Program-made: the position numbers and the translations under genes
The notes under the pieces: model-generated
Database searches by the model: none
Seen by the model: the letters and a program-made list of their open reading frames with translations, nothing else
What the model was told of the DNA's origin: nothing
Assembly: GCA_950097015.1 (NCBI GenBank)
Contig: CATNEN010000001.1
Location: 13,020,001-13,084,000 of the forward strand
Direction: 5' to 3'
Source of the DNA: Macrostomum hystrix
Taxonomy: Eukaryota; Animalia; Platyhelminthes
Length of the DNA stretch: 64,000 nt
Shown here: positions 5,578 through 64,000 of the stretch, piece by piece
Layout: the number at the start of each line of letters is the position of its first letter
Numbering within the stretch: the stretch's first letter is position 1

Positions 5578-6234
5578 TGTTGTACCTGTGGTAGCGTGGC
5601 ACACACAATTGGTAAAATAACCAAGACAGGAACTAGATTCCGAGAGAGAGAGTTTATACCGGCCTCAACACTGAATGCTTCGTAGCAGTGGAGCAACCTG
5701 GTAGTCAGGCTAGATTACCTAGTTTTCTCGGTCGCTATCTAGGCTCTAGCAGTAATTCCTGCTACTTTGATTCCCTGCTCTGAAGCCTGGCGATGTGCTA
5801 TGCTTCTAAATGCAACACACGGCCTTGCTTCACAATAATGTTAGCAGACAAGATACAAAGATTGCAAAAGAACACAATCGATGTGAAACGCATGAAGACT
5901 GGAGGACAGAAACGTGCCATATTCGTACAGAAGTTGTGCTACCGCGGTACTAACACCATCTCAAGGATTCGTCGGACTGTGCTCTACTTATAGTAGGAGC
6001 ATTTGAGCGTTGTTATGCCAGTCTTCTTCCGAACTTAAGCGATTGCACCATGGTGTGCAATGTGACTCAGTGCGCAGACAGAGCTGGAACGAGAGAACGA
6101 GAGAGGAGGGGGGGTGGCGAGCGGAAGTGACAGTGCACGGGAAACACTAACTACCAACCCTAGCCCTCCCACAGACCTAGAACAGCCTGACTCACAGATT
6201 GCCTGGAGGCTGCTCAGCAGTCTACAGCACATCA
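5578..6234 (-). mobile_element. Solo LTR (family A), 657 bp
   Basis: TG...CA termini. 4-bp TSD GTAT at 5574-5577 and 6235-6238. Homologous to 60217-60840 in the opposite orientation. Confidence 0.85.
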
Positions 6235-27528: not shown

Positions 27529-27862
27529 AGCAGCTCTCGGCTTTACCCGTTTTTAATGTCAGAGCGCGCGGCCCTCCTCTCTCTCTGCCCTCTCTCCGCC
27601 GCCTACCGCCCACCCCCTTTTGCGTGTTCATCTATGCTCGTACATTTCCGAGACTGCACATTTGAAGTCCCGGGGCTGCGCCCCAATATATGTCGCCCCG
27701 TGTTGAGAAGCGAGGATCGCTGTCGCTGTCTCAAAAAAAATTTTTTATTTCAGTTTTATCTGCTGCTTTAATTCAAATAAACTCGCGCTAACAGTCACAT
27801 CGCTCATGGGCTGCTTCTCGCCTGTGGGCGCTCTTTCGCCAACTGCCTTGTATTTGCTCCAT

Positions 27863-30197
27863 TGATGTGGAGTGTGCTGCGGGAATCGAGTGGGAATGTG
27901 AGCCAGCAGAATTTTTCATTTTTAGGCAATAATAATCGCGACCCACATAGCAGCTGGCCGCAAAACAAGATCATTAATCTTAGCGCCGGGTTTGGGGCGG
28001 CGGTGAATTGAGTAGCCACCGAATCCCCTCTCCCTGGATCTGTCTAGACCCTTGTAGGAATGACTGATCGCGGGCCATAACTCTACTGTATGAGCTAGTC
28101 TAGGTCATAATTCTCCTCCAAACCGCGATCAGATATTGGGAATCACTCGGGCATTATGAGTGATCATTAATTCTTCATGTCCCCACTTCTTTACAGTATT
28201 CGAGCCCAGCTCGACTTTATGACCCTCCTCCTTCTAGATACATGTAAATGTCACTGTAGGCAGGTCGGCGCCGGCGCTTCCCATTGTCCTGGCGGAGTAA
28301 CAATTGCTGGCCGACTGCCGACGGCTGTTCACGCAGAACACCTGTCGTTTCCCGCCGCCGGTTCATTGGGTGATCGGCCTATCGCCGCCCCGATCCCTCG
28401 TTGACAGGCTGGCGAATGTGGGTTATTTTGATGGATGTCGAGGTTGGCGTGCTGCAGGACTATTTAAGCAAGCGCGCTGCGCTGCTCCCTCTAGGACCTT
28501 CTTCTCCGCCTTTTACTCCCCCCTCCTACGGCCGGACCTACCTTTGCCGGGCCGGACTCCCACCGGACCCAGGACTTCTATTCCGGACCCAATTCCCCCA
28601 CACAGGGCTTAGACCATAGAGCCATAAGCTCAGCCAAGCACTCACAGGCCCATTGCCTGCTCCTAATCCCCTAGCAGCGCAAGCCACCTCTTTAGGTGAG
28701 CCCTCAAATTGAGCCTCGGAGCTCCACTAGTGTGTTGGCCCCTGCCAGCTCATATTTAGCTTTCCCCTCCTCTGCCTTTGCTAACTTTGCCTACCCCTCC
28801 CTCGAGAACTACAGGCCTGCGGCACGCGATCGGCACCCAGATAAGTAACCCGCGTAGCGGCTTCTGTTTGTTACTCCAAAGGGACTATTCTTTTAGCTAG
28901 GCTGCACTTTAGTGGGAAAGGGCATTGGGACTTTTGGGCTTAAAATAAAAGTTCATCATTAGCCAATCAAATCACTTTAGGCCAATTTAAAGTACAATTT
29001 AAATCCTTTCATTCTGTGTCCGCCTCGATGTTTATTTTATCTCGTAGACAGCCCTCCGAGATGAGTGGCTAATCACCTAGGGGGTGGGCTCTGGTGATGC
29101 CGAGCTGAAGGCTGCGGCAGGATGGCAGCTGTGCGCGCGCATGAGAGTAATAAGAAGCTAGGGATTTGCAAGCAGATGCGGAGGCAGCATGTGCATTTCT
29201 TCCCAGGGGTTGGGGGAATCCTTGGCCGGCTTTCCTTCTCCCGATTGGGCGGGCTCAAGGTGTACCTGTTGAACTCCCTTTCCAATGGAGTTTTCCCCTT
29301 TCCCCCCTCTCGCAACTGCGGCCACGGGAGCGAGAGTGATGATCTATTAATCTTTCGCTTGCATAATCACTCAGCCAGTGTTTTGCTTAATCTCTCCAGC
29401 CTCTGATCTCCTCAACTCACACAGATTCGGTTTGTTAGTTACTTAATGTGTAGGCTGCAGTCTAATGTATAGAATGTGTCTGATTTTTCATGAGTAGGAT
29501 TCTGGCTATGGATTCTCATTCAAGTTCTTAGTACCACCTTTCTAGACCCCTGTAGCGCGAATTCAGGAATCCATTTTTGAGGCGTGTCTCGATCCATTTT
29601 GGGGCTCTCACCCCAGTGTAAAACGGAAGTTGCAGAATGCCCTATTTTTCGGCTTGTCTAGATCTGCGTGATAAAGTTTGAGCTGTGTACTCCGGGGACC
29701 CAAGTTCCCAAATGTCTGCGGTGGCGACGTAGGCGCATTGGGTGGTGGCGCTACCCTAGATCATCTATCCGCTTTGCCGATAGCCTTTCCGCAGTTCTGT
29801 GACGAGAGCCTAGGCCGATTCGACCACCGCTACCAAGGTTAGGAGTCAGTTGCGCACATACTACTGACGACAGTAGGCTGTCTAGCCCTGTCCTGTCCGA
29901 TTCCGGATAGTCCGATGCCCCTCTTCTTAGACCTTTAGCCGGTTTCGTGCATTGCTCGGGGTAGGCACGGCAGCCATGCCTGTGGCCTATGGGACGAGTG
30001 GAACTGGCCAGCCTGAGGCCGATAGGACCACTCCCTGCATCTACTGAACCTCCTCATCTCTCCCTTCATCTCCTCCCTCTCTCTCCGCGACATCTCGCGA
30101 GTTGCTAGGCGGATGTTTAATTGACTATGTCGCCCGCCTCTAGTAATCACCTCTCATGAAGGCAGGTCAGTGGTTGCAAAACTCCCGAACCATGTCA
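27863..30197 (+). mobile_element. Long solo LTR (family C, copy 2), 2335 bp
   Basis: TGATGTGG...CCATGTCA termini. Inverted, diverged homologue of 19616-21937. TATA-like TATTTAAG at 28461. The flanks CCAT/GGAT are not a TSD. Confidence 0.8.
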
Positions 30198-46900: not shown

Positions 46901-48939
46901 TAAGTATAGATCCCGTTTTGATCCCATCTTATTTGAAATTCTTAGGCGAATACGGCAGGATTTGTCTCAGCGGGCCATTTACATATCAGGATGAACTACT
47001 TGTGATAACTATTAAACACAGATACCTATGTGACACTCGCACAAAGACAAAAATGCACACAAGAAATACTCACGTTAATTGCAACTTTATTAGTCTTTTA
47101 AGTCTTACTCGTCCATGCAATCATGTGTTGGTCCAGGCTTCTCGGACTCATTGGGAGCCTTAGGGGTTGACATAGCCGGGATATGCTGACTTCTGTAGAC
47201 TTGATCTCGAGAAAATGTGACCTGTAAAATGAAATTAACATAAACATATTTTTATTCTTATTTTTTTATTATTCTAAAATAAACCTTATCTTTAAGGATA
47301 AGAGGCCTCATTGAACCAGTTAATAGCAAAGAAGTTAATTTTAATGATGGATCTACCCAGTGGGAAAGGCGACGTTGATCTAACGGAGTTCCAACGGAAG
47401 CTGGTCAGAAAACCGTTGGGAGGAGAGATCAATGCAGAGTGCATTGAAACATGCATAGAAATGAAAATTATGCGATTCCTTTATTCATTTATGCAATACA
47501 CTGCATATGTTTGTCACCGTTGAGAAAGCGTTGTTATTGCACAACGTTGAATTGGAGTTGTTTTCACAACAGTAAAACGTCGCTGCTTCATTAGACGTGT
47601 GTCAACTTTTTTAGCAAGTATTAAAATATCTATTTAATGTCTAAATCTCACGATGTAAGAAATATTTACAAGAATTTGTTTTATGTTTTAATTTTATAAT
47701 GTTTTGAACTGATTTTTCAAAATTGCTCGTGCCGTGATTTCTTTATCCCTAGACTGTCGTCTGTTATTGCGTCTTTCTCTTGTGTTTTCTACAGCGGAAC
47801 TAATTTCATTAATTGCATTCTTAGAGTTTTGTGCTCTGGAATATTGTTTATATTTTCAAGACCATAATAAGTTTCGGGCCATACTCGCTGCAATACATCG
47901 CAATATATTTTCGGTGCACTGCGCAACTCTGACTTTGTGGCACATAGGCCTAACATTTCTGGACAAAATTGTATTATGCATTTCTTATCAACAGGGGTGT
48001 TTTCAGTGTGGTGATCTCACTGAGTCCTGAGTCAAGGCCCTTGGCAATAAGTGAGAAAGTAGGATTGCTTCTTATGTAATCAAGGCCCCTTCTTGATTTG
48101 ATTTTTGCATTTTTATCTAACTGGCAACTATGTTTCGATTTGGTCAATTCAATCTTCTAGCATGGTCATTAATGCTAGTAGATCTATCCAACAAGGATCT
48201 TTTAGACAAACTAGGCCATTTGCAATAATTAGTTATTTTTTAATTATAAAATATAATACACCTACTTTTGGGCCAAGCTGCTTTTAACCCAAAATATAGT
48301 CAATTATAGAATACTATTCTTGCTACCTTAGCAAATCCCAGCATTATGCCAATTCTAAGCCCATTCAAAAGTCAAATTTCTAAGATGCCACCTAGACTTA
48401 AATATTCTCTTTCAAGGGTTTTTCTTTTGACTATTATTTTGTTGTATTTTCCTATGGCCATAGCCATATGATACCTTCAGTACTATTGCTCCTAGATTAG
48501 TTATTATTATTTAATTATGTTATCTATATATCTATATTTATTATGCTTTGCTAGACTAATTGGCATAGTCTCTTGTGTCCCTATTTTAGCCATGGTCAGA
48601 TCCCTATCTCTACTATACTGTTAAGGTACATATTTATTTATATAGTCAGGCCTATATATGTGATAATTGTGCTGCATCCCTTCATATATGATTATGTAAT
48701 GTCTTATAAGTTTGCATATAACATTAGTAGACTTGTCTATTGACAATTTATATATATTGTATTTATATTGTTTCTTTCTATACAATATAAATATAGATAG
48801 AAATTATATATAATTTAATTTATATTTTTTGTACACACAATGTAGTCTTACATTCTTTATAAAATTTAGGAAGTTGTTTAAGCTCCAATATGATTTTACA
48901 CTTAAGCTACACTTGACTACACACTATTTTTTACTTCAG

Positions 48940-50857
48940 ATGTCTAAAAGAACATTTAATCGCAATGTGATCAAGGACCTAATTCGGGAAATCTCCACCC
49001 CTGCTGGTGAAGAAGAGATCCAAAGTAATGTTGATGAGGACGAGGCTTTCATGGGGGAGCAAGATTTTGATGAGTTGGACATTGAGTCAGAGGTTGATGC
49101 TCTCACTCATTTTCTCAATGGTTCTGATGAGAGTGATTCTGATGACCTTGTCAATGAGTTGGAGCAGGATTCTGCTTCTTTTAGTCAGGATCCCTCTGGA
49201 GAACTTGTGAAAGACAGTCTGGGCACAGAACTGCTACTCTTCTTTGTTCTGTTCAACATCCCTCGGATGGCCATGCAGCACCTGCTCTCGCTTCTCTGCC
49301 GCCATGGAGTGCCTGTTCCGCCTTCTGTCTATCTGCTCAAGAAACAAAGCAAGGACTCGATTCATGCCACTGAGATAGTTGGGACTATGAAATCTGGACA
49401 GTTTTCATATGTGTCGATTGCTAAAAACCTGGAATTCTGCATCAAGAACACGCTTTTTGAGTTTGACAAGTGTGCTCGTGACCCTGTCACACTCGCGCTT
49501 CTAGTGGATGTTGTTGTTAACATAGATGGGATGCCGCTGTACAATAGTTCTTTACTATCCGCTTGGCCAATTCTTTTGAAAATTTCTGCCTTCGCTCGCC
49601 CACTCCCTCTTGCTGTTTTTGTTGGCAAAAAAACCACAGTTAGATGTCTTTCTAACTGATTTCTGTGCTGAACTGAGGAATTTCATGGAAAATGGTGTAA
49701 CTGTGCAGGATCATTTGATTCAGTTTCGTAAAGTCATTCTTGTTTGTGATGCACCTGCACGCTCATTCATTTGTAATGTTTTTGGTCATAATTCTCGAGT
49801 TGGTTGCAACTATTGCCGCGCTTTGTGTAGCTATGCTGAACATCGTGTCATTTTTCCAACACAAGTGAGTGAAGCTAGAACAGATGAATGTTACTCTCGT
49901 GTAGGAGAGAGCAATCAAAAACGTGATTGTTCCACTCCACTTGTCACAGCCGTGCCGATGATTGGCTTGTACTCTTGCTTCCCACCTGACTATCAGCATG
50001 CTGTCTGCTTGGGTGTCACACGCAAGCTTTTTAAGTATCTTTTTTCTTCTGCGTTTGGCTCTCGTTGCAAAATATCTCGCACAAAGCTGGCTGAGTTGTC
50101 TGATTTTATTGAGCACTGCGCAAAGTTCATTCCTGCCGAATTTCAGCGCCGTCCACGTCGCCTTGACAGCGAGCTAGCGCACTTCAAAGCAACCGAATAT
50201 CGATTGTTTCTTCTGTATCTGGGTCCCTACTTTTTCAAAAAGTTTGTTCCTCAACGGAACTATCACCATTTTTTGCTCTTGCACTTCGCAATGTATGTTT
50301 TTTCATCTGGCATTGAAGTACTTTATTCCCATGCCAAATGTTGCATTGAGATCTTTGTCCGTGACATGGAGCAGCTATATGGGAAATCATCACTTTCGTA
50401 CAATGTTTATGTGTTGCTGCACTTTTACGAATTTGTACTCCGCTATGGAACTTTGAATAACTTTTCAACCTTTGACTTCGAGAACTATTTGGGCCACGTC
50501 AAGCGAAGAATTGTTGTAACGCGCTTTACTTTTCAACATGTCTATAATCAGTTTCTTAATGTAAGATCTAGGCTGACGTCCCATCCAGAGGCTGATCTGT
50601 TTTTTTCTACAGCTTCACCAAACAATTGCGCAATCATTTGCGGCGTCCCTGTGCTAGTTCGATCAGTCGAGGCTGGAGTTGTTTCAGGACGTGTTTTGAA
50701 GTTTCGTCGACCTCTCTATGCTTATCCCTATTCATCTGAGGCGCTTAACATTGGCTTCTACTATTTGTCGCAAGAAAAAGTCTCTGGCATTGCAAGCTCT
50801 AAGTGTATTCTGATCCCGGAATGCGGAAATGAATTTTTCGTTGCTCCCTTCTGCTAA
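48940..50857 (+). CDS. EnSpm/CMC-type DDE transposase, intronless, one frameshift in an A7 run (~49630)
   Basis: NIDGMPL..SS...WPIL, CDAPARSFI..GHN...GC..C, DYQHAVCLGV, P.EF.RRPR.L...FKATEYRLFLLYLGP, YNV..LLH and FENYL motifs. Confidence 0.9.
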
Positions 50858-50878
50858 GCAATTCTCTATTTTTCAGCA

Positions 50879-53607
50879 ATGAAGTTTATCGTCATTTTTC
50901 ATAAAGACAAGGAGATCGTTGAGGTTTCTGGCGAAGACATCTGCCTGAACCAGTTTGCATCGTTTAGCATCGACGAATGGCGACAGCTGAAGACTAAGGC
51001 TGTAGTGACTGCTTTCTACGACAATCAAGTGTGGCCATGTACAATCTTGCAGGTCAGTTTTTTACAATTGAAACATTTTCTTGCTATCTGAACTGCTAGT
51101 GATAATAAGATAAGCACATTGTATATAATATATAATAATCATAATGCAATATACTATAAGAAATATTTATAAATTTATAAATTAAGCCAAGGTAAATAAA
51201 CTATGCTATTTCTTTTCAAATTATTTTCCAAATAAGAAGTTTCTTTTATACTTTTTAGGAGGCCAAATTAGCTAAGCCATTACTAATTTTTAATTTCAGG
51301 TTGTTCCTTACGGAGTTGAAGCTTCGAGTGTTGTTGACTGGTTGCGAGCCTTCAGACGCAGGAAAAACTGCAAAATTGATACTCTTTTGCAACTCGTCTC
51401 CCGAGTGGCCGATTGTAACAAAAGGCAAAGGTTTATGCCAGTCGAGGTAAATATTTACTTTCTTATCTTTTAGTCAGCGTCCGTAGCATTATATTTGTGA
51501 AATTAAAAATGGAAATTTTGAAATGAACTCAGCATCGGCTCCGCGCATGCTCCTTTAACCAATTATTCTGCCATACTTATCTTCTCATGTAGTTAAGTAG
51601 CAGTAGCAGTAAAATGGTTTATAAGCTATATTGGAAAACGAGCTGTGCCTACCCGAACCAACGTTGCACCGTGAACGATCTAGGCCTTAAGCAAAATGAG
51701 TGTGCCTATATATGCTTATCTTGTTTTATCATTTTTCTTTCTTTTCTAGAATCTGCAGACTGAATCTGACGATCAAGTGGAAGATACTAACATCGATCAG
51801 CCAATCAGTGCTTCCGCCCAGCCCCTCGGTGGCGAATCGCCAACTATGGCTTCACTGTATACAGCTGGGCCCACATCAGAGCTCCTGTTACCGCCACTCC
51901 CACCATCTATGCTGGTTTCTGAATCGGCTTCAACTGTGTCAAAGTCTCCCCGGCCTGCAGGGCAGAGCTCGTGCCCTCAAGGCGATCGACTGACGGCTGA
52001 GCCACCTGGTGCTTCATCAGCCACATCACGACATCATTCGGGTGCATCACGGCAGGGATCGTTCCTTCGAAGCAATGAACTGACGACTGAGTCACCTGGG
52101 TCATCAGCCACACCACGACACCATTCTGGTGCCTCTGGAGTCGATTCTGGATTCTGGAGTCGTGCATCACGACAGGGTTCGGTTATCCAATGCAGGACAA
52201 CGAATCGAGAGCAACTGAGCGCGCTGCAATCATGTCCTGATTTTGCTGATTTAGCATCTTTGAATTTCGGTGCCAGCAGCCTCACCACCCTACGGTCTAA
52301 GATGGAGGATAAGCTGGGTGTTGATCTTAATTCGTCTGGAGGACTGTGCCTGCTTGGACTGTTCAACCTTCGTCGGACAAGCATGTGCATTGCTGCCGTA
52401 AACGAAGTCAAGGGGCTGCTCCAAGCTGGTTACATCGGCGGTGACTCCGGCGGCGGATCTGTGGCTTCCGCAGAATCTAATTTGCCTGTTGATTCCTGGG
52501 AGGATTACATTTGCTACGCTAATAATCCGGAATTGGCCAACGATCTGGTAAGTTTTTCGTGAATTCTGTGACTTCTTACTTCATAATTGCGGGCGTAGTT
52601 TTTTTGTATAGATGATGTATACATGCTTGCTTCTTGTATACACGTCTTGCAGTATGAATGCTTGCTGTATATCTTACAAGCTCGTATACTTTTCCGTTGC
52701 TGCTGCTCCAGTCACCGGAATGCAGCTTGAAATTAAGATTGTACTTTTACTTACGGGTAAGTAATTTTAGTTAATTGCATAAAGTACTCATTAATGACTA
52801 TTTGTACACTGGGTAGAATAGACGCTCTTGGCTAAAATATTTGTATTCGGTAAAATCGGACCTCATCTGCTTCATTAATCATGAATGAGTTACGTTCGAA
52901 ATAGTTTTTTCGGTAGGCAGGATGGTAAAGTAGAAAAAATGCATATAATTCCGAGGTTTGATTAATTGCCCTAATAAGAATTCAGCATGGCTCAACAGGA
53001 CCATCTGGGAATTCTCTGCTCGATTGTTGACGTACTTTGTCTCTATGCAGCATGACTCGTTTTATTTCTACAGAAACCACATCTTCGTCTGTGCAAGTCC
53101 GCTACAACACGCGACACAGTACGCAGAATGGTGCGAAAAATCCTGTCTGACAAAATGCTTGCCCGAGTGAACTACAATGGCAAGGGACTGCAGAAGCTGT
53201 CGGGCTCTTCTCTATCCGATGGGCAGTTGGCTTTTCGCGCCACGTTTCTTCCTATTATTAAACGTAAGCTTTTCGCTGTTATATATGCCGCTGCCTAGCT
53301 AGCAAGTACAGTTCTCGTCTTTTAATATAAAGCTTAAATAAAAATCTTTATAGAATCCGTCAGATCAATCTACGGCGCCAGCAAGCCCCAGCCAGCTGAG
53401 TGCGAGCCGGCCGAGAGCGAGGTGGAGAAGGCCGTGATCGCAACTCTGAAGGCTGGTAAGGACAACAGGAGATCTGGCGAGAAGCGGTCGAAACTTCCTG
53501 CTGCGAAAAGCCAGCTACGGGGCCCCAAGCGAAGTCGCGGTGCCGTCGCCTTCGTCAGCAGCGGCAGCAGCAGCAGCAGCGTGGGCAATGACAGCGACAG
53601 CAATTAA
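50879..53607 (+). CDS. Accessory DNA-binding protein (DUF4806/BEN-like C-terminus), 5 exons: 50879-51052, 51300-51446, 51750-52547, 53074-53263, 53354-53607 (~520 aa)
   Basis: All four GT-AG introns are phase-compatible (0, 0, 0, 1) and give an uninterrupted ORF. VRRMVRKILSDKMLARVNYNGKG...AF resembles DUF4806. It is homologous to 61105-62654. Confidence 0.85.
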
Positions 53608-55791
53608 GCGTACTATGATTAATGACTAGTGACCAGTGTTGAGTAAGTTACAGTTCCAAAGTCAAGTTAATTAATAAAATTATAATAGGCCAGAGCACTG
53701 AGTAATTCTTTTTTGCATGCTTATTATTTTCAGCGACAGAAAGACAGTCGATTTAGTAAGACAATTGAGCAGTGACGGAGTTAGTAAGGGGAGCAAAATG
53801 GCAACTGTTCAAGTTTAATGACATGTAAAATGCGCGAACCTTGTGCGAAACTTACATTACTGTCACTTTACGTTGTGATTATTTCTATATAACTAAACTT
53901 TGTCAACTGAATCTGTTAATAATCTGTCATTTCGATCATAAAAACGCCATTTTTATATAAATAAAATATTGTGCGCAACGCGCGTGCAACGTATTTGTAT
54001 CATTGTACGAGCTATCGCCAATTTAACAAGAAAACACAAATTCATTGTTTCACTTTCGTCTCATTATCTCTTTCTTGAAGAAATTCAAATGTATGCCCGA
54101 AAAGTATGCATAAAAGTGCACCCGCAATCGACTTCACAGGCGTTGGTTTGTGCCGGTTTAGCGTTGCATAACCGTCGCATGCCGCCGTTGTACTAACGTT
54201 TTTGCGCCGGACACTTGTAGCCGTTGGTCCGCCGTTTGTAGACAACGTTGTTCCAGCGGTGCCTTTTCCGATGGGTAAGAAGTGAATTACTTAATGCTAC
54301 TTTAGTAGACACCATGTTACTATTTAACCCATACATAATAAAACCAAATTACCTCTGTCTCCAAAGCGCACTCTAATTCTTCGCACTTCATCGAATTGGT
54401 TGAACATTCGCTCTGGGTAGTGCAATACCATTTCGTCGTCATGGATAGCATTTTTCTCCCGCTGGGAGCTTTGCGTCACGCGTAGCTCCTCGAAGCACTG
54501 CTGGCTAGAAACCGCATCCTTGTACCACTGGGTAATGACGGAGACATCGGCAGAGTCTTCTGGCCAATGCTGAATTTCCGCTTTTGAACATCCGAGGCTG
54601 ATTGTCAGTCAGTTCTTCACTGACTGATTTAAATAAGTTTCCCTAGAAATAGTTCGCTAACCTAAAAATCAATGGGGAATATATATTCCACATCCTTTCC
54701 ATTTTATTTTTAACAATTGCAACAAGCAAACTTACATTTTCATTTCACAGTCCGAAATCTCTTTTATCTTCTTATAGCTCGGTGCACGTCGAGTGACGGT
54801 CTTGATGGTCCTCACAATGGCACCACTTTGGTCAATTGAAACTGTTAGCTCGTGCTCATTGTCCGTAGGACCTGGGATCCGCCTTTTTCACCCAGCCGCC
54901 GGATATGCAGACGGCGACGCCCTCACGGCACACGTCTAGCCTCAAGCCTTAAGATCTTTCCGAATACGCTTACACGAATATCGCCGGTTTCGTCCCAGAG
55001 GATAAAGGAGAACACTTGGCCTGGTCCTCTTTTGCCTTCAAAGTCCATGATTTTGGACAGCCTCATTACCAGGCCAACGATCGCAGCGTGCATCAGGCCC
55101 GGAAGCAGAGCAGAGATACAAACTTTGCTTTTCTTGGCTCCTTCGCATGACTCCATATTGCTCGATTGTTGATTGCCAAAAATATAGAACTTTATTATCA
55201 TTATTATAGATCTAAAATAAATAAAAAATTCTCTAATCAAAAGTGAACACACACAAGCAAGCAAGCAAGCAAGATTTTCATTTTTAGTATAGTAGAAAGC
55301 TGTTTGTAAAATTGCTGGACGTAGTGGGCTATATAGCTTTGTTATGCAGAATCCTCCGAGAAATGATAAATACACGTTTTCTGTATAATCATATGGCCAA
55401 TTCGATCAATCAAAGTCGACCTACAGCTGCGTTAGACGAACGAAACACGAAGAGAGACAAAAATTTGTAGAACAAATTCGTGAAGTCGGAGCTACGGAGA
55501 CCTACCGAAAAAATATGTGCTCAGACTATAATTTTTCTTAATTCTTATTAACGTGAAAACCTGGGGACGGCTCAATGCGAGCGCCGGAAATCCTAGGGTT
55601 GCGGATTCCAAGTTGGAAGGGGATCAGGCCTTACTCTCCCAGTGTCACCCGCCATAGTGCTGGTTCGTAGTTGGTTTGTGGAGAATTGTGATGCCCAGGT
55701 CTAAAGTAAAAAAGGGTGCGCTTGAGTAGCTAAACTGACTAAAAACCGACCAGTTTAGCTAGTTTAGAAAGTTGATTATAACAAATGATAA

Positions 55792-56135
55792 TGATGTGCT
55801 GTAGACTGCTGAGCAGCCTCCAGACAATCCGTGAGTCAGGCTGTCCTAGGTCTGTGGGAGGGCTGGGGTGTAGGTAGTTTGTGGTTCCCGTGCACATTCA
55901 CCTCCGCTCGCCACCCCCCTTCTCTTTCTCTCTCTCGTTCCAGTTGTCTGCGCACAGAGTCACATTGCACGCCATGGTGCAATCGCTTCGGTTCGGAAGA
56001 AGACTGGCAGAATATCGCTCAAATGCTCCTACTATAAGTAGAGCACAGTCTGACGAATACGCTGGGTTGTGTTAGCATTATGGTAGCACAACTTCTCTAC
56101 TTTGGTGGCACTGTGTGTACTGATTTTCTTCATGC
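55792..56135 (+). mobile_element. Truncated, more diverged copy of solo LTR family A
   Basis: tgatgtgctgtagactgctgagcagcc... matches 60217 onward. Homology stops at ~56135. Confidence 0.8.
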
Positions 56136-56309
56136 TTTGCCGGATCCTTGCGAATTAGAGGACCTTACAGTCCAGTGAGCGGAAAAATCCAGATAGAACC
56201 GTATCCACGCCAGAGTATCACATTTCTGGTACGGTTTTAGGGGCCGCTCAGTTAGCACTCTTACCTCTCTAAGGGGTAACCTTCTATACCCTAACCCTAG
56301 GTTAGGCTA

Positions 56310-56850
56310 GTTTCTCTCCTCTCCTTGCCTCCTCTCTAAGTGGAAGCGCCTTTTTTTCCTTCTCCCCTTGCCTCCTCTCTAAGAGGAGGGCCTTCTCCCT
56401 TTCTCCCCCTCCTGCTCCTCCTCCTCTCCCCTTCCTCTCCTCCTCCCCCTGCTACCCTCTCTAAGAGGCTAGCCCCTGTCCCTCTCCTCTGCCCGTCCTC
56501 TGCTCCCTGCTACCATCTTTAGAGGTTAGCCCCTGTTCCTGTCCCTGTCCCTGCCCTGTTTTCCGTGCCCCTGCTCCCGTCCTCTTGCTTCTCTCTTGCT
56601 TCTTTACTTATTTGTGCATTATTTATATTACTTTTAGTTTTACTTTTATTACAGTTTTAATTGCTGTTTTACTGAAGTTTTACTTTATTTATACTGTTTT
56701 ACTTAATTTAATTTACAGTTTTACAATTTATTTGCTCTAATTTTTTTTAATTTAATTTGTATTGCTTTATACTACTTTAATAATCATATTTGCATTATAT
56801 TACTTTTATTGAATTGCACTTTTAATTGAATTTAACTGCATTTATACCTG
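56310..56850. repeat. Low-complexity CT-rich then AT-rich tracts
   Basis: cctcctctctaag repeats are followed by tttattta-type sequence. Confidence 0.7.
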
Positions 56851-57646
56851 TGCAGAGAGTCAGGGACAGAGCAACTGGTACTGCAGAATCAACGAGGCAC
56901 CCAGTGTCCATGATGTCAGCATTATGCCGTAATTATGTTGACGCGTCAGCATATTTTTGACAAGCAAAAATAATTCCAAACGTATGTTGCATTGATATCT
57001 GTTTGATATTCATTGAAGGTGCTTTCAGTTTCGCTAGCAATTCTTTCTTTTTTAGGCGCAGCATCAAACTAGAAAAAATTTGGCCTGTGCATGCCACAGC
57101 ACAATTAAGGCATTTTGTGCTAAACATATGACTGAGAAATTTAGAAGGAAAAATATTTTATGCGGTTCCTGAATAGTCCCAAATTTATTATAGTCTTCAA
57201 ATATACCCATGGACAAATTTTACTGTCCACATAATTTTCGCATATATACAGCATGCAAATGCTGTCATTTCGTCGATTTGGTATAATTTGAATTGTACAT
57301 TGTTATTATATATACTAAATGGACTAAACATAGTAGTCATACAAGTAATATTTAGATGGTTTATCTCAAGCTATGTTATCTTTTGGCCATAATAGTTATA
57401 CATGTTTTTTATTTTTTGTTCTAATACTAAATATTTTACAATATTGAACAAAACTATAGCACATTTTTAATTGATGCTTTTTACGCTATTCGTCTTAGAC
57501 CTAACTTCTGTCTTTCTTATATATGTATGCCCAAAAAAGACCTTTTCTAACAACGCATTTGTATATTAGTTTCTAGCAATAGTAGTGGGTGCAGTCTGGC
57601 AGTTTTCTAATTAGCTAAGGCTGTATATATGACGTTATATACGTTA

Positions 57647-57769
57647 GGCTTACGTTAAGTAATTTTCATGCTAGAATTATTCCGGAATAGTAGCCAGACA
57701 TACATGCTGGAATTATTCTGGCTTTAAATTCCGGAATAATTCCAGCATGAAAATTACTTAACGTAAGCT
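57647..57769. mobile_element. Short palindromic MITE-like element (~45-bp arms)
   Basis: ggcttacgttaagtaattttcatgctagaattattccggaat ... attccggaataattccagcatgaaaattacttaacgtaagct, with TA flanks. Confidence 0.7.
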
Positions 57770-57870
57770 TACTTACGTTAAGTAAGCCTAACTAGGCTCT
57801 AGCCTCTATATAGGCATAGGCCTATGTGAATTTTGTGAAATATTGTACTTGTAAGATTTTATATATTATA

Positions 57871-58515
57871 GGGTAATGTATCATCAACCAAACAGTGTAT
57901 CTTCAAAACCGAACAAGAATTTTGACTTCTTCCTTGGTCTCATGCAAGACAGATACAAGCTATTGTGTTTCACAAAACAACTAATTTGAAAGTTAAAGAA
58001 ATTATCTACAAGCTGAGGCATGATGTGCAATGAAGCATTAAGAGGAAAGAAAGATATTGATGTTTCAGTAGAATTTTTTATTGCAAAAGCATACTTTTTA
58101 ACAACATTTTTTCAGTATGTACTTTAGACAAAGATTGTATGTGGTTCGTGGTTGCTTGCCAATTAAATGACCATAAATGTAGTTATTTATAGAGCATGAA
58201 AAATGCTTTCAAATTACATAATTCATGATAGTTCACTCCTTAAACTAAGATTAAACCACTCACTCAAATTTTAAAACCAAACATCAAATTCTCTGTTTGG
58301 TTTGAAGATACATGAAAATCATTGTTCGGTTTTAGATAAAGAGCAGGAATAACTTTTTTCTATTTAATAAAATAGCAAAAGCAGTTACTTTTTAGAAAGA
58401 TATAGCTGTTTTCTATAACTTGGCTTTTAGTTTATCATATCTCAAATAGAAAATCAGTAGCTTAGGTTTGAAGTTAAAAAATACACATTCTTGTTTGGTT
58501 GATGATACATTACCC
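57871..58515. mobile_element. MITE, 645 bp, perfect 24-bp TIR, TA flanks (Tc1/pogo-like)
   Basis: gggtaatgtatcatcaaccaaaca ... tgtttggttgatgatacattaccc, with internal TIR-like repeats. Confidence 0.85.
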
Positions 58516-59173
58516 TATGCACCAGTTTTTAGTTGCTTTGTTGTATATATTGCTGTTAAAATATGATATGATATAATACTATTCCTTGTAGTTTATATTG
58601 CAAATAGCAAACAATTACATATATGGTTGTCAAAAAAGGTATAAAACTAACGTTAAGTTTTGAACAAATCAATGAAACAAATTATGTTGAAATCTGACAA
58701 TAGGGGCCTAGGCTTTTTCCATCATAACTATTTTAGTACCTATCTAATTATTCATTGTAATTATAGGTTATAGACATAGCTATAATATATTGTATAAGCC
58801 ATAAAACTGGTTTAAACTTTTATATTTATAATTTAGGCCTAATGAATAGGCCCTTAATTTACTCTGTATATATATAAAGCCAAGGTTTTTTAAGGTTAGA
58901 AATCCAATTGTCAGCTGGCCCTTAAGGTTCAAAATCCAGTTGCCAATGGCTATTTTTGGTTGGCCACTGGCAACTAGCCACATTCTTGAGGATAGATATT
59001 TCTAAGGCTTATCAAAACATGTTTGCACTGTATGAATATGTGAATAAGACTGTTTGGGACTTGTTATTGAATTAACATTTAAATTGTCAATTTTTGCAAT
59101 TTTGTATTTGCTACAACTTAAATTCATATGGCATTTTTATTATACTTGCAAAATCTTTTTCTGAAAGTGGCAA

Positions 59174-59653
59174 CCTGGGTTTTTTTAGGCCATATTGTAG
59201 CCACTGGCTACCCAAAAAAACCATTGGCAACTGGATTTGTGGCATCAGAGGCCAATCTAGCAACCAACTTGAACTAAGGCAGTTGCCTATGATACAACAG
59301 TCTCACATTTTATTACTGCTAAGATTGGCTTGGCTGAAAAACTTAAGCCTGAGCTGATTCAAGCATATTATTTTTTTGTCAATGTGTGAAAATTGTTGCT
59401 AAAGCAACTTTATAAAGTTGTTTTGTTGTATTGTGATTTGCATATGATTTTGAACTGGGACACTGAAATAGGTCAGTTGCCAGTTGACAACTGAGGATGG
59501 CCATTGGCAACTAGATTTCGGACAAAAAACCTAGGTGGCAACTGGCACAAGAAAATGAAGTTGCTAGATTGGCCTCTGATGCCAAAAATCCAATTGCCAA
59601 TGAGATTTTTAGGGGTCAAAAAACCCTATATGGCCCAAAAAATTAAACCTAGG
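59174..59653. mobile_element. Foldback/MITE-like element with ~95-bp imperfect inverted repeats
   Basis: cattggcaactggatttgtggcatcagaggccaatctagcaac (~59222) is inverted at ~59560-59602. A related block occurs at ~58900-58980. Confidence 0.65.
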
Positions 59654-60216
59654 CATTACATCCTAATATTCTTATTATTAAATTACTAGTTTAGCTATAA
59701 AGTGCCAATTTATTATCATTTAGTAGGATTTATTTGGTCACCAAAAAAATTATAAATATAATATAATAGTATATAAAGGCAAACTCTATGAGCAAAAAAT
59801 TTGAATTAATAACCATTTATTTAGCTATATTAAATGTGATAAGTGTGATACATATATTTTTTCTATCATAGTTTCTTATTTTTACTAAAGTTTTTTGGAG
59901 CCACTTTATTATGGCTTTTAAAATTCTACTTGTTTATTTTTTATATTAATACTATCATGATTAAATATGTCTAAATATGATATATTGAAATGTCATTAAG
60001 TATAGCAAAAGCAGTAAATATGCAGTGTAGTATATAATAATGTGCATTATAAAATTTTAATATATTGCAAGTATAGCATGTGGTTAAAGAGAGACATTAT
60101 TTTCATATATCAACAAAAAGCAGTCAATTTTATTAGTTTACTGTGGATAAGACTAGGAACAGCATTATCTACAAGTACATAATACTATACCAATTGGGAA
60201 GATATTCTATAATATA

Positions 60217-60840
60217 TGATGTGCTGTAGACTGCTGAGCAGCCTCCAGGCAATCGGAGAGTCAGGCTGTTCTAGGTCTGTGGGAGGGCTAGGGTTGGTAG
60301 TTAGTGTTTCCCGTGCACTGTCACCTCCGCTCGCCACCCCCTCCGCTCTTCTCTCTCTCTTTCCAGCTCTGTCTGCGCACTGAGTCACATTGCACACAAT
60401 GGTGCAATCGCTTAAGTTCGGAGGAAGACTGGCAGAACAACGCTCAAATGCTCCTACTATAAGTAGAGCACAGTCCGACGAATCCTTGAGATGGTGGTGG
60501 TGTCATGGTAGCACTACTTCTTTACTTTCTTGTCTCCAGTCTTCATGCTTCTTGAGCCCTCGGGGTCTCAAACATCTGCTAATTTATTGCGAAGCTAAGA
60601 CCGTATACTGCGTTTAGAAGCAGAGTGTACCGTCTGTTTCAGTGCAGAGTGCTAAGACTTAGGAATCATAGATTGATTCAATCACAGACCGAGGAAACTT
60701 AGCAATTGAAGCCTGACTACCGGATTGTTCCTCTGCTAGGAACCATCTGCGTGTGAGGCCGGTAAAATCTCCTCTCTGAATCCAGTGTCCTGTCTTGGTC
60801 ATTTACCAATTGTGTGTGCCACGCTACCACAGGTACAACA
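60217..60840 (+). mobile_element. Solo LTR (family A), 624 bp
   Basis: TG...CA termini. 4-bp TSD TATA at 60213-16 and 60841-44. Confidence 0.85.
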
Positions 60841-61104
60841 TATATAATATTAAGAATTGAGTAGTATTAAGGATTTTCTTCCTTAATAGTCAGTTTATGT
60901 AAGATTCTAAGACAAGGAAATACAGGGATTGGAGAAGAATAATAGATATAGATTAGAAAAGCAGATATAAAAGATAAAACTATATAAGTGGTTGAAAGGG
61001 GAGAAGACTATGGGAATTAAAGAAAGAAAAGTTTGTAAGTGGGAGTCAAAAGCCAAATAAACATGTTATCTAAAGTCCAATTTATGCATTATTTCTTATT
61101 TCAG

Positions 61105-62654
61105 ATGATCATTCAATTTGAACAATGCAAATTCGTACTGGTGTTTTTCATAAGTGATAAAACTTTTGAAATTGTTTCAAGAGATGCATGTATTGATTGG
61201 AATGAAACGAAGTACAAATCCCTAAAGGTGAATCCATCTCGGAAGACAATCGTGACGGCCACGTCTGATGGAGTTGAACAGTCTGCAATCATTTTCCAGT
61301 GTGGAAATGACTATCAATCATTAAAGACTTGTCGGGATCATCTAGCTCAGCATAAGACTTATAAAAATGGCCAATTGAACGCATGTTGCATGAAATTGAA
61401 TACATCGAAAGATTTCCTGATCCAAATAAGCGTTTTTGACACCAGCCTTTGGACCATTTCATCACTGATGGCGCTGAAACTGATGGCGATCCTGAAGTTT
61501 GCATGAGCCAGGCTTTTCAATTGTCACACCAGGAATGCCCATCAACACCTACTCCAGACCCCGAGCTGGAACATCTTTTGCCACCTTTGCCATGCAAAGC
61601 TTTGCTGGAAGAAGTACCTGATTATGTTTCTCTAGGTGCACGCAGCTTACTACAATCCAATCATCCGGCTATCCAAAAAACGTCTGGTTGTGCTCAGCGC
61701 AGTCCACATCTTATGCCATCGTCATCTAGGAGCCATTTGCAAGAATTGACAAACAGTCCAACTATACCATCTAGTCCAATGCCAGAATCGTTCTTATTCA
61801 ATCTTGGCAATGTGTACAGGATGGCTAGGCGACATGGAGTTCAGCCGAATGAAAATGATCCAGCGACATTTCTCTCTGCTATTACATTAAAAAAGTTAAC
61901 GACTTTAGAGAGCACTGTGAATTTTCAATTTCAGCAACTAAATGCTCGCATTTCCCGACTTGAGCAGTCAAGTGCAGCTGCTTTTTCCATGGAGGAGACA
62001 GTAGAGTTGGAACGTATATCCACAGAAGAGCAATTAAACCTGTTTCTGAATAATCTTCAAGACAAACAATTTGCTTCGCAAATCGAGCAGTCAAGTGCAG
62101 CTGCTTTTTCCATGGAGGAGACAGTAGAGTTGGAACGTATATCCACAGAAGAGCAATTAAACCTGTTTCTGAATAATCTTCAAGACAAACAATTTGCTTC
62201 GCAAATCAAGACACATTTGGTTCGGCATGGTGGAAAGTGTGGAGCAGATTCGGTTCGTCGAATGTTAAAAGCACTTTTTTCATCTTCGTTTCTCTCTCGC
62301 TTTAATCGCAATGGACTAAATGGCAAACTCAAGTTCAAAGGAGTACTTGAGGACTTCATTAAAGACTGTGCTATTGCTGCTGACGACACGCTTGACCATC
62401 AGATCATTGAGAAAACCATAGCTTCCTGCATTAAGGTTGCTCTCAATGAATGCCGTAGCCTCTCAGGTGCATGTGCAGATGGAGGAACAGATTTTGGTAG
62501 AAGCGACCAAGACCGAGAGAAAACACGAAGACCAAGATCAAGAGACCAAGAGACTAGAAGACGAAGACCAAGATCAAGAGACCAGAGCCAAGAGCCAAGA
62601 GACAAGACACACAGATCTGTGCGGTACATTTCGCCGATCTCTGATGTGGATTAA
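61105..62654 (+). pseudogene. Intronless DUF4806-like accessory gene of the second CMC element (frameshift ~61368, TGA ~61437)
   Basis: The N-terminus KFVLVFFISDKTFEIVS parallels MKFIVIFHKDKEIVEVS. The C-terminus has GG....SVRRMLKALF.......FN.NG..GK.KF. Confidence 0.75.
61962..62207 (+). repeat. Exact 123-bp in-frame tandem duplication
   Basis: 61962-62084 equals 62085-62207 (41 aa, EQSSAAAF...FASQI, twice). Confidence 0.95.
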
Positions 62655-62740
62655 CTATCAATAGAATTTTATAGTAATCTAAGATAGTTTTCAAGGCCTT
62701 ATTATTTATCATTCAAATTCATCTTTCTAGTAGTGCGTAT

Positions 62741-62937
62741 GGGGCGCTATCACAAACCCTAAAAATCACATTCCCTAAAAGCAGTCTAAATCATAAACCC
62801 TAAATATCATAACCCCTAAAAATCGCATTCTCTGAAATCTGACAGGACACATCACAAATTTTTTTATCACCTTTTAGTAGTAGCCCTTATCTTTTGGAAT
62901 TTAGAGAATGTGATTTTTAGGGTTTGTGATGCCCCCC
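62741..62937. mobile_element. MITE, ~200 bp, ~35-bp TIRs with GG termini
   Basis: atcacaaaccctaaaaatcacattc ... gaatgtgatttttagggtttgtgat. Possible degenerate 8-bp TSD gtgcgtat/gtgcataa. Confidence 0.7.
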
Positions 62938-63313
62938 GTGCATAAACACCGCGCTTTAGCTTCATGCAAAATGCAAAATGAGCACCCTAATTTTTGTGTG
63001 GTCTAGACTCAACCTTTTATTTCATTTTGCTGTTTGTCTTAGATATCATTTACACTTGAAGTCAAAATTTGCTGCTTTAGTTATATTTAGCTATTGCTGA
63101 CTTAGATTAAAACTGGACACATTGTACGTTGTAATTTAATATTTTGCTATGGTTTATAGCACCCCCAATATTTGCACAAACTTTATCTTCACGTACCATT
63201 TAAAAAACTATGGAATATGGGACTACTTAGTTGTGAATATGCCGATAGTTTTGGATTTACCTCTGTTGTCTGTTGTCTATCTCTTACAGGCTGGACGAAG
63301 GCATGTATTGCGC

Positions 63314-64000
63314 ATGTCCTGGCAGTCCATTGAGGACATAGAGGAGCCTTCCGGTGTGGCGTCTTTTCCTAGTGAGTCTCCTTGTGCCACTGAAGACGAG
63401 GAGTATTATGATGAGTATGACTTAAGCAATTCGGAAGCAGCCCTTTTTTCGGATGAAGATGCTGCGGGTATTGCGGACGAGCCTGTCGTCGGTATTGCAG
63501 AACAATTAGCCGAGCCTGATTTTTCTGGTAATGGTGCTGCCAGTGGTGTAAGATCAGGTAGTGGTAGCATATTTCCAGAGTTATGCACATTTTTTGTTCT
63601 CTTCAACCTTCCACGCTCTGCAATTGTTTTCCTTGTTCGACTTCTTGCCAGGTTTGGTTTAGAAGTCCAAACAACGTATTGTGCATTTCGACGATACGTT
63701 TCTAACTCTCATCCACAAGCCAAATCAATGCGTAATGGCAACTACGCCTACTTTTCTTTGTCCGATAATCTGCGCTATGCCTTTCAAAATTCCTTGTTGG
63801 GTAACGAGTCTCGTTCTGGTGAGGTGCAACTTTCGCTTAAGGTCAATGTTGATGGCTTGCCGCTATGGAAAAGCTCGTCGGTTGAATTTTGGCCTATCTT
63901 GGTGCAGTTGGCATATGTAAGCACGTTTTTCCCGTTTCCATTTTCTGTGGCACTGGAAAGCCTCCCTTGAATCTGTTCCTCCAAGACTTTATTCGCGAAG
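63314..64000 (+). pseudogene. EnSpm/CMC-type transposase N-terminal part (frameshift ~63925), truncated by the window edge
   Basis: EL..FFVLFN.PR.A...L..LL, G.Y.Y.S...NL and VNVDGLPL.KSS...FWPIL, then in the alternate frame PVSIFCGTGKPPLNLFLQDF. It parallels 48940-49680. Confidence 0.88.

What the first reader, a model, noticed from the sequence alone, without database searches (positions are those of the whole stretch)
47356..64000. Two-gene CMC/EnSpm cassettes with swapped gene order: each ATG sits behind a splice acceptor and the upstream gene is always intronless
Seen: element 1 is transposase (48940, intronless) followed by a DUF4806-like gene (50879, 4 introns). Element 2 is a DUF4806-like gene (61105, intronless) followed by transposase (63314). 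All four starts follow a pyrimidine tract plus AG: ttcag|ATG at 48940, ttttcag|caATG at 50879, tttcag|ATG at 61105, and ttacag 24 nt before 63314. Known: maize En/Spm makes TnpA and TnpD by alternative splicing, and some invertebrates resolve operons by SL trans-splicing. Inference: one promoter feeds both genes through competing acceptors (cis or trans), so the upstream ORF is a skippable cassette and gene order is interchangeable.
Basis: partly seen in the sequence, partly recalled or inferred. Interest (0 to 1): 0.8.

Follow-up and report, generated by a model that had tools for sequence, protein, structure and literature searches.

The report
Transposon genes entered by splice acceptors
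Two damaged animal cut-and-paste transposon cassettes place a splice acceptor directly before each of their two genes, a layout known from the En/Spm family, and the second transposase likely borrows its start codon from a spliced-on leader, while the proposed gene-order swap remains unproven.

Summary
The four acceptors are real and beyond chance. Element 1 (47356-54275, CCCA..TGGG ends, TA duplication) is an animal En/Spm (TRC-type) transposon: an intronless transposase, then a five-exon DUF4806 gene whose relative folds as a BEN DNA-binding domain. This layout is the family norm (38 of 59 related loci show the accessory gene downstream, none upstream). One transcript skipping the transposase ORF is already published for maize Spm and Schistosoma SmTRC1. 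'Upstream gene always intronless' is not a rule: transposases are mostly intronless anyway, and two close relatives have introns. The 'swap' is unproven: the window ends inside the second transposase, no terminus was found, and a relative's contig seems to carry two accessory genes. New: element 2's conserved transposase N-terminus lies between the acceptor and the first ATG, so its start codon likely comes from an upstream exon, plausibly the flatworm spliced leader, which ends in AUG. Relative L007 shows the cis version, a coding exon in phase with both acceptors. No RNA evidence was obtainable. The scan noted another EnSpm element in this genome, not this architecture.

The parts
47356..54275 (+). 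Element 1: complete animal En/Spm (TRC-type) DNA transposon, 6.9 kb, imperfect terminal inverted repeats (12 of the first 15 nt match), subterminal AACG/CGTT repeats, TA duplicated on both sides
47655..47660 (+). Best donor-like site of the 5' region (6 of 8); a weaker one lies at 48051. Use untested
48925..48939 (+). 3' splice acceptor abutting the transposase ATG
48940..50857 (+). Intronless transposase, about 638 codons; one frameshift at the A-run 49627-49633; Tyr in place of the first His of the family's YNxHxxxH motif
50858..50878 (+). 19-nt spacer made up of the second acceptor (ends 50876); no AATAAA or ATTAAA
50879..53607 (+). Accessory gene, exons 50879-51052, 51300-51446, 51750-52547, 53074-53263, 53354-53607; 520 aa, intact; weak DUF4806 match; AATAAA at 53673 and 53960
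60217..60840 (+). Solo LTR (TG..CA, TATA duplicated) inserted 264 nt upstream of the element 2 acceptor; related LTR sequence at 55791-56103 and 5578-6234
61090..61104 (+). 3' splice acceptor abutting the element 2 accessory ATG; a GTAAGT donor-like site lies 70 nt upstream at 61035
61105..62654 (+). Intronless accessory gene (weak DUF4806), broken: frameshift, in-frame stop, 123-nt tandem duplication 61952-62197
62741..62937 (.). Small inverted-repeat element in the 635-nt spacer, with an imperfect 8-nt flanking duplication; ATTAAA at 63106
63275..63289 (+). 3' splice acceptor of the element 2 transposase, phase 0
63290..63313 (+). Eight in-frame codons between the acceptor and the first ATG that carry the family's N-terminal basic motif; likely coding
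63314..64000 (+). Element 2 transposase, N-terminal third, no intron visible, frameshift near 63920, cut by the window end

Best explanation
These are damaged animal En/Spm (TRC-type) transposon cassettes in which a transposase gene and a predicted BEN-fold DNA-binding accessory gene each begin at their own 3' splice acceptor, likely on one transcript, and in this host (likely a Macrostomum-like flatworm) the acceptors likely receive the spliced leader, whose terminal AUG would supply the start codon of the element 2 transposase. Shown: termini, TA duplication, gene models, acceptors, breaks, the family order. Inferred: one promoter at the left end; choice of the first acceptor gives a transposase message that still carries the accessory ORF behind it, choice of the second discards the transposase ORF, so accessory mRNA would outnumber transposase mRNA as in Spm and SmTRC1; the BEN-like protein would bind the subterminal repeats as TnpA does. 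The accessory-first order of element 2 is most likely an extra intronless accessory paralog placed upstream, or a true swap made harmless by acceptor-based starts; the window cannot tell these apart.
For: Shared unit: 19-nt spacer without poly(A) hexamer; acceptors enriched before both genes in relatives (strict rule: 8 of 39 and 13 of 38 against 55 of 582; one search graded score set: 22 of 42 and 24 of 29 against 98 of 659). Donated AUG: the 22-residue window starting at the 63289 acceptor is the best match to the family N-terminus in the first 120 residues; 0.28% of 3212 null windows and 0.34% of 5000 shuffles score as high; none of 5 strong donors in 57200-61090 or 3 weaker ones in the spacer has an ATG in phase 0. 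Host: best named hit is M. lignano at 57%; its leader ends in ATG, its trans-splice motif is YTNCAG and operons are common (PMC8629364). In that relative's cluster all 6 members named Mlig021851 have odd gene numbers, and 4 of 9 members are 5'-partial within three residues of the Met; that annotation cuts transcription units at leader and poly(A) peaks (PMC5730564). BEN fold: top five VIA-align rows are BEN domains, best Z 10.3, rmsd 1.9 over 83 residues.
Against: No transcript data. Host identity rests on one transposase hit and unnamed hits at 53-54% follow closely. The rule for gene numbers is not stated in the section read, so odd numbering is only suggestive, and partial 5' ends can be plain truncation. 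YTNCAG also fits 2 of the 4 internal cis acceptors of the accessory gene, so it does not mark trans-splicing. Donor-like sites exist upstream of both elements (47655, 48051, 61035). At 50876 a leader AUG would be out of frame (2 nt). Element 2 is decayed, so its ATG could have been lost by a small deletion. Relatives L007, L040, L078 use the cis layout. The fold is of relative P0154, not the window's protein, Foldseek E-values were only 0.03 or worse, and Z 10 is not conclusive for a helical domain.
Confidence: 0.5

Rival explanations
1. Classical cis alternative splicing: a short 5' exon near the left terminus is joined to either acceptor, as in maize Spm and SmTRC1; the AUG for the element 2 transposase came from an upstream exon now broken up by insertions.
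For: L007: an 11-codon ATG exon with a GTAAGA donor is in phase 0 with both acceptors, and neither gene has its own start (686 and 146 open codons). L078 and L040: an exon ending 31 and 64 nt before the transposase ATG matches the phase of the ATG-less accessory exon. Donor-like sites at 47655, 48051, 61035. PMC1636069 reports ESTs skipping the transposase ORF and a bicistronic clone. Flatworm acceptors are often shared by cis and trans splicing (PMC12582326), so both may occur.
Against: No ATG-bearing phase-0 donor found upstream of 63289. Donor motifs within 600 nt upstream of relatives' transposases are at chance level (19 of 31 sense, 17 of 31 antisense; 11 against 6 of 41 at 20-140 nt). 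Of 7 ATG-less loci inspected, 3 gave a clear match, L063 is compatible, 3 gave none. M. lignano gene models start at the ATG.
Confidence: 0.33
2. Element 2 is a three-gene cassette (extra intronless accessory paralog, transposase, then a normal intron-bearing accessory gene beyond 64000), not a swap. This concerns gene order and is compatible with either splicing mode.
For: P0013, sister to the element 2 transposase in a quick tree (SH-aLRT 91), P0154, collinear with the element 2 accessory gene, and P0124, a second DUF4806-like ORF that looks like a last exon, are each listed on an ENA contig of 5498 nt. All 38 informative loci have the accessory downstream.
Against: Equal contig length is indirect; the DNA and gene order of that contig could not be seen. 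The tree used 131 columns and the careful search did not finish. The 59 loci are mostly a more distant clade.
Confidence: 0.45
3. The two element 2 genes belong to different, nested or decayed elements that happen to lie in tandem.
For: No left terminus recognised, region full of insertions, 635-nt spacer with an ATTAAA.
Against: No terminus like element 1's in the spacer; the closest relatives of both genes appear on same-length contigs.
Confidence: 0.2
4. Each gene has its own promoter and an ordinary 5' UTR intron; no shared transcript.
For: Possible for element 2 (about 430-nt spacer without the MITE, ATTAAA at 63106); Arabidopsis has EN/SPM families with separate tandem genes (PMC13547354).
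Against: In element 1 the promoter and first exon of the accessory gene would have to lie inside the transposase ORF and the transposase has no room for a poly(A) signal after its stop; no GT[AG]AG donor in the element 2 spacer.
Confidence: 0.12

Closest known systems
SmTRC1 and animal TRC elements of the CACTA/EnSpm superfamily (PMC1636069, parts 1-3 of 6 read)
   Same: CCC termini, 2-bp target duplication, one intronless transposase ORF, most transcripts splice past it to downstream exons, a bicistronic transcript was cloned; flatworm host
   Different: cis splicing only; no leader or gene-order change reported in the parts read; its accessory protein had no detectable homology, here it is DUF4806/BEN-like; direct sequence relationship to SmTRC1 not tested
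Maize En/Spm tnpA/tnpD and Arabidopsis EN/SPM families (PMC1636069, PMC13547354 passages)
   Same: Transposase plus DNA-binding accessory factor from one unit by alternative splicing, or as head-to-tail genes; turnover between the two layouts is published
   Different: CACTA termini, 3-bp duplication (recalled), intron-rich transposases (PMC4158355, listing only), unrelated accessory fold, no trans-splicing
M. lignano Mlig021851 transposase cluster (P0001, P0143-P0147)
   Same: 57% identity over 98% of the C-terminal 425 aa; same MSKR start; sister to element 1 in the quick tree (SH-aLRT 90)
   Different: DNA and partner gene not visible here
Flatworm leader-resolved operons and leader-supplied AUG (PMC8629364, PMC9851317, PMC12582326)
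   Same: Acceptor before each cistron, short spacers, leader AUG used as start codon in over 40 S. mansoni cDNAs
   Different: Described for host genes; 'transpos' occurs 0 times in PMC12582326 and once in PMC8629364

Membership tests
Animal En/Spm (TRC) elements, CMC clade | Terminal inverted repeats starting CCC | tested here: met
   Element 1: CCCA at both ends, 12 of 15 nt. Element 2: ends not found or outside the window
Animal En/Spm (TRC) elements, CMC clade | 2-bp target site duplication | tested here: met
   TA on both sides of element 1; no empty site seen
Animal En/Spm (TRC) elements, CMC clade | DDE transposase with C(2)C and H(3-4)H motifs (PMC12730594) | tested here: met
   NIDG, CDA, CxxC, YNxHxxxH, FENY columns in alignment A1; placing the motifs is my reading; this copy has Tyr for the first His
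Animal En/Spm (TRC) elements, CMC clade | Transposase_21 (PF02992) domain | tested here: inconclusive
   No Pfam hit for the window's pieces or P0013; homologs P0079 and P0091 carry PF02992 and others PF13960
Animal En/Spm (TRC) elements, CMC clade | Alternatively spliced transcripts from one unit | not testable with these tools
   No RNA run listed; anatomy fits
Leader-resolved operon | Same-strand genes under 1 kb apart with an acceptor before the downstream gene | tested here: met
   19 nt and 635 nt; criterion from PMC8629364
Leader-resolved operon | Leader sequence on the mRNA at the acceptor | not testable with these tools
   No reads available
Leader-resolved operon | No cis donor upstream of the acceptor | tested here: inconclusive
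   None in the two spacers; donor-like sites at 47655, 48051, 61035
BEN-domain proteins | BEN fold | tested here: met
   Model of relative P0154, residues 213-334: five BEN chains lead (Z 6.8-10.3), next row 5.9; DUF4806 above cut-off; link DUF4806-BEN noted in PMC10789644 (one passage)
BEN-domain proteins | Sequence-specific DNA binding | not testable with these tools
   Inferred from fold only

The most novel reading that the evidence does not exclude
A flatworm En/Spm lineage has turned the family's cis-spliced cassette into a leader-resolved operon: the transposase has no start codon of its own and is translated only from the host spliced leader's AUG, which ties transposition to cells rich in trans-splicing (stem cells) and frees gene order, so that an intronless accessory gene can sit in front.
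Probability: 0.2. Interest if true: 0.72.

Novelty: new variant of a known kind. Interest (0 to 1): 0.42.

Why it matters
If the leader supplies the transposase start, a DNA transposon depends on, and can be limited by, a host-specific RNA processing step; this would restrict horizontal transfer and may aim activity at neoblasts, where 85% of marker genes are trans-spliced in M. lignano (PMC8629364). It is directly testable in existing leader-read tracks. The comparison also gives animal En/Spm elements a named accessory factor, a BEN-fold protein in the role of TnpA. My searches (listings only) showed no paper on leader-resolved CACTA elements or on BEN proteins in EnSpm, but subscription journals and Repbase reports are not covered. 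If only the cis model holds, this is an ordinary family member.

Tried and rejected
No whole genome was held, so copies could not be collected. Viral contig scans found no relatives. Two word-based protein searches for the accessory protein gave nothing new, so even-numbered Mlig021851 genes were not found. The accessory N-domain profile built from distant loci did not hit the window's genes; the link rests on the C-domain profile. The terminus search in loci gave mostly low-complexity or palindromic matches and was not used. A candidate left end for element 2 at 57206 has TA|CCCA but none of element 1's subterminal motifs: rejected as unproven. Donor counts upstream of relatives' transposases were at chance. 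Splits in 7 transposase loci (L023, L050, L052, L058, L060, L072, L074) are stops or frameshifts, not introns. No poly(A) remnant was seen by eye after the element 2 accessory gene, so a retrocopy origin is unsupported. The careful tree did not finish. Earlier-finding look-ups by sequence and words were blank. Supplements of the cited papers were not opened; those of PMC5730564 or PMC8629364 may list trans-splice status per gene.
Full report
Observation. Three lie 0-2 nt behind a strong acceptor, against 9 of 1021 plus-strand ATGs in the window under the same rule; the fourth lies 24 nt behind, against 84 of 1021. Element 1 runs from 47356 to 54275 with CCCA ends, 12 of 15 matching terminal bases, clustered subterminal motifs and TA on both sides. 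Its accessory gene has five exons and an open 520-codon frame. Some may be assembly errors; I could not check.

Identity. The transposase has 273 homologs among 5802 candidates; the best named is a Macrostomum lignano protein at 57%. Pfam gave no hit for the window's transposase pieces and only sub-threshold DUF4806 hits for the accessory pieces; the intact relative P0154 passes the DUF4806 cut-off. A model of P0154 (mean pLDDT 69.6, C-terminal domain above 90) matched BEN domains in six of the top seven Foldseek rows and more, with weak E-values, and in the top five VIA-align rows. CCC termini with 2-bp duplications define the animal TRC branch of CACTA/EnSpm (PMC1636069). The host is inferred to be a Macrostomum-like flatworm from that one hit.

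Family comparison. Scans gave 79 loci (the best 80 kept of 286 confirmed) and 2 more, which collapse to 59 clusters. An accessory domain lies downstream on the same strand in 38 of 59 and upstream in 0 of 59, including 0 of 14 with at least 2 kb upstream. The accessory gene is always split: the frame closes 53-167 codons after the N-domain start in 27 of 27, and both domains lie in different ORFs in 8 of 8. Of 49 near-full-length transposases 41 are one ORF, 7 are broken by stops or frameshifts and one, L002, has a 47-nt intron; L001 also has N-terminal introns. The ranking favours unbroken ORFs, and all but L001 and L002 of the loci placed in the tree fall in the more distant clade. So element 1 is the family norm, and lack of introns follows the transposase, not the position.

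Acceptors in relatives. With a rule fixed beforehand, 8 of 39 transposase starts (p 0.048) and 13 of 38 accessory starts (p 6e-5) have an acceptor within 40 nt, against 55 of 582 flanking ATGs (loci without a visible N-terminus or Met were left out). A graded score chosen afterwards, on hand-set starts, gave 22 of 42 and 24 of 29 against 98 of 659. In L007 neither gene has its own start; an 11-codon exon with a strong donor is in phase 0 with both acceptors. In L078 and L040 an exon just upstream of the transposase matches the phase of the ATG-less accessory exon downstream of it, placing the transposase inside an accessory intron. This is the layout published for maize Spm and SmTRC1, where most transcripts skip the transposase ORF and the long transcript is bicistronic.

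The element 2 start. The family's N-terminal motif (Met, one to three residues, a basic pair, then a further basic residue) is at the ATG in element 1, but in element 2 it lies in the eight codons between the acceptor and the ATG at 63314. The window starting at the acceptor scores -2.4, the best in 120 residues, above 99.7% of 3212 null windows and of 5000 shuffles, and within the family's leave-one-out range of -16 to 17. The protein therefore likely starts from an AUG joined in phase 0. No donor with such an AUG was found among 8 examined. The M. lignano leader ends in ATG, and flatworm leader AUGs are known start codons (PMC9851317). Loss of the ATG in a decayed copy is the plain alternative. 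Further hints for trans-splicing come from the M. lignano relative: 6 of 6 Mlig021851 transposases have odd gene numbers and 4 of 9 cluster members begin one to three residues after the Met, in an annotation cut at leader and poly(A) peaks. These hints are indirect.

The order of element 2. The order is as read, but no left end was recognised among a solo LTR and MITEs, and the right part is outside the window. The nearest relatives of its two genes, P0013 and P0154, and a second accessory-like ORF, P0124, are each listed on a 5498-nt ENA contig, which suggests one subfamily with an intronless accessory gene and possibly two accessory genes. I put a three-gene cassette at 0.45, a true swap at 0.35 and chance adjacency at 0.2.

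Papers seen: PMC1636069 parts 1-3 of 6; PMC8629364 part 2 of 4 and passages; PMC5730564 passages and section 31; PMC12582326 passages and section 14; PMC12730594, PMC13547354, PMC9851317, PMC10789644 passages; PMC4158355 listing only. No supplements.

Verdict. Real features, known family, known competing-acceptor logic. The intron rule is not supported and the swap is open. What may be new is a transposase start supplied by the host leader, and a BEN-fold accessory factor. New variant of a known kind, interest 0.42.

Noticed in passing
L007:319-351, 471, 2605: One 11-codon exon appears to supply the start codon to both transposase and accessory gene through alternative acceptors: the cleanest cis example seen.
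   Followed up: yes
L064, L067, L072, 15-50 nt after the transposase stop: An acceptor, a 24-30 nt mini-exon and a GTAAGT donor follow the stop directly.
   Followed up: no
window:50879: The element 1 accessory protein starts about eight residues inside the N-terminus of relatives P0123, P0135 and element 2; an upstream phase-1 exon was not found among strong donors.
   Followed up: partly
window:53640-53733: Donor-like and acceptor-like sites suggest an intron in the 3' UTR of the accessory gene.
   Followed up: no
window:54926-55405 (-): ORF with a weak OB-fold match (PF01336, E 0.0024), part of a multi-exon gene next to the right end of element 1.
   Followed up: no
window:8355-12557: LTR retrotransposon on the minus strand, gag and pol ORFs, with 207-nt identical terminal repeats.
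   Followed up: no
window:39288-44543: Non-LTR retroelement with endonuclease, reverse transcriptase and RNase H regions in several frames.
   Followed up: no
window:33858-36573: hAT-like transposase ORFs, named by recalled motifs only.
   Followed up: no
window:19616-21938 and 27862-30197: 2.3-kb inverted repeat at 82% identity flanking a region with a 272-codon ORF.
   Followed up: no
window:57645-59613: Three different inverted-repeat elements in a row, upstream of the solo LTR.
   Followed up: partly
L011: The contig is a perfect inverted duplication of the cassette, probably an amplification or assembly artefact.
   Followed up: no
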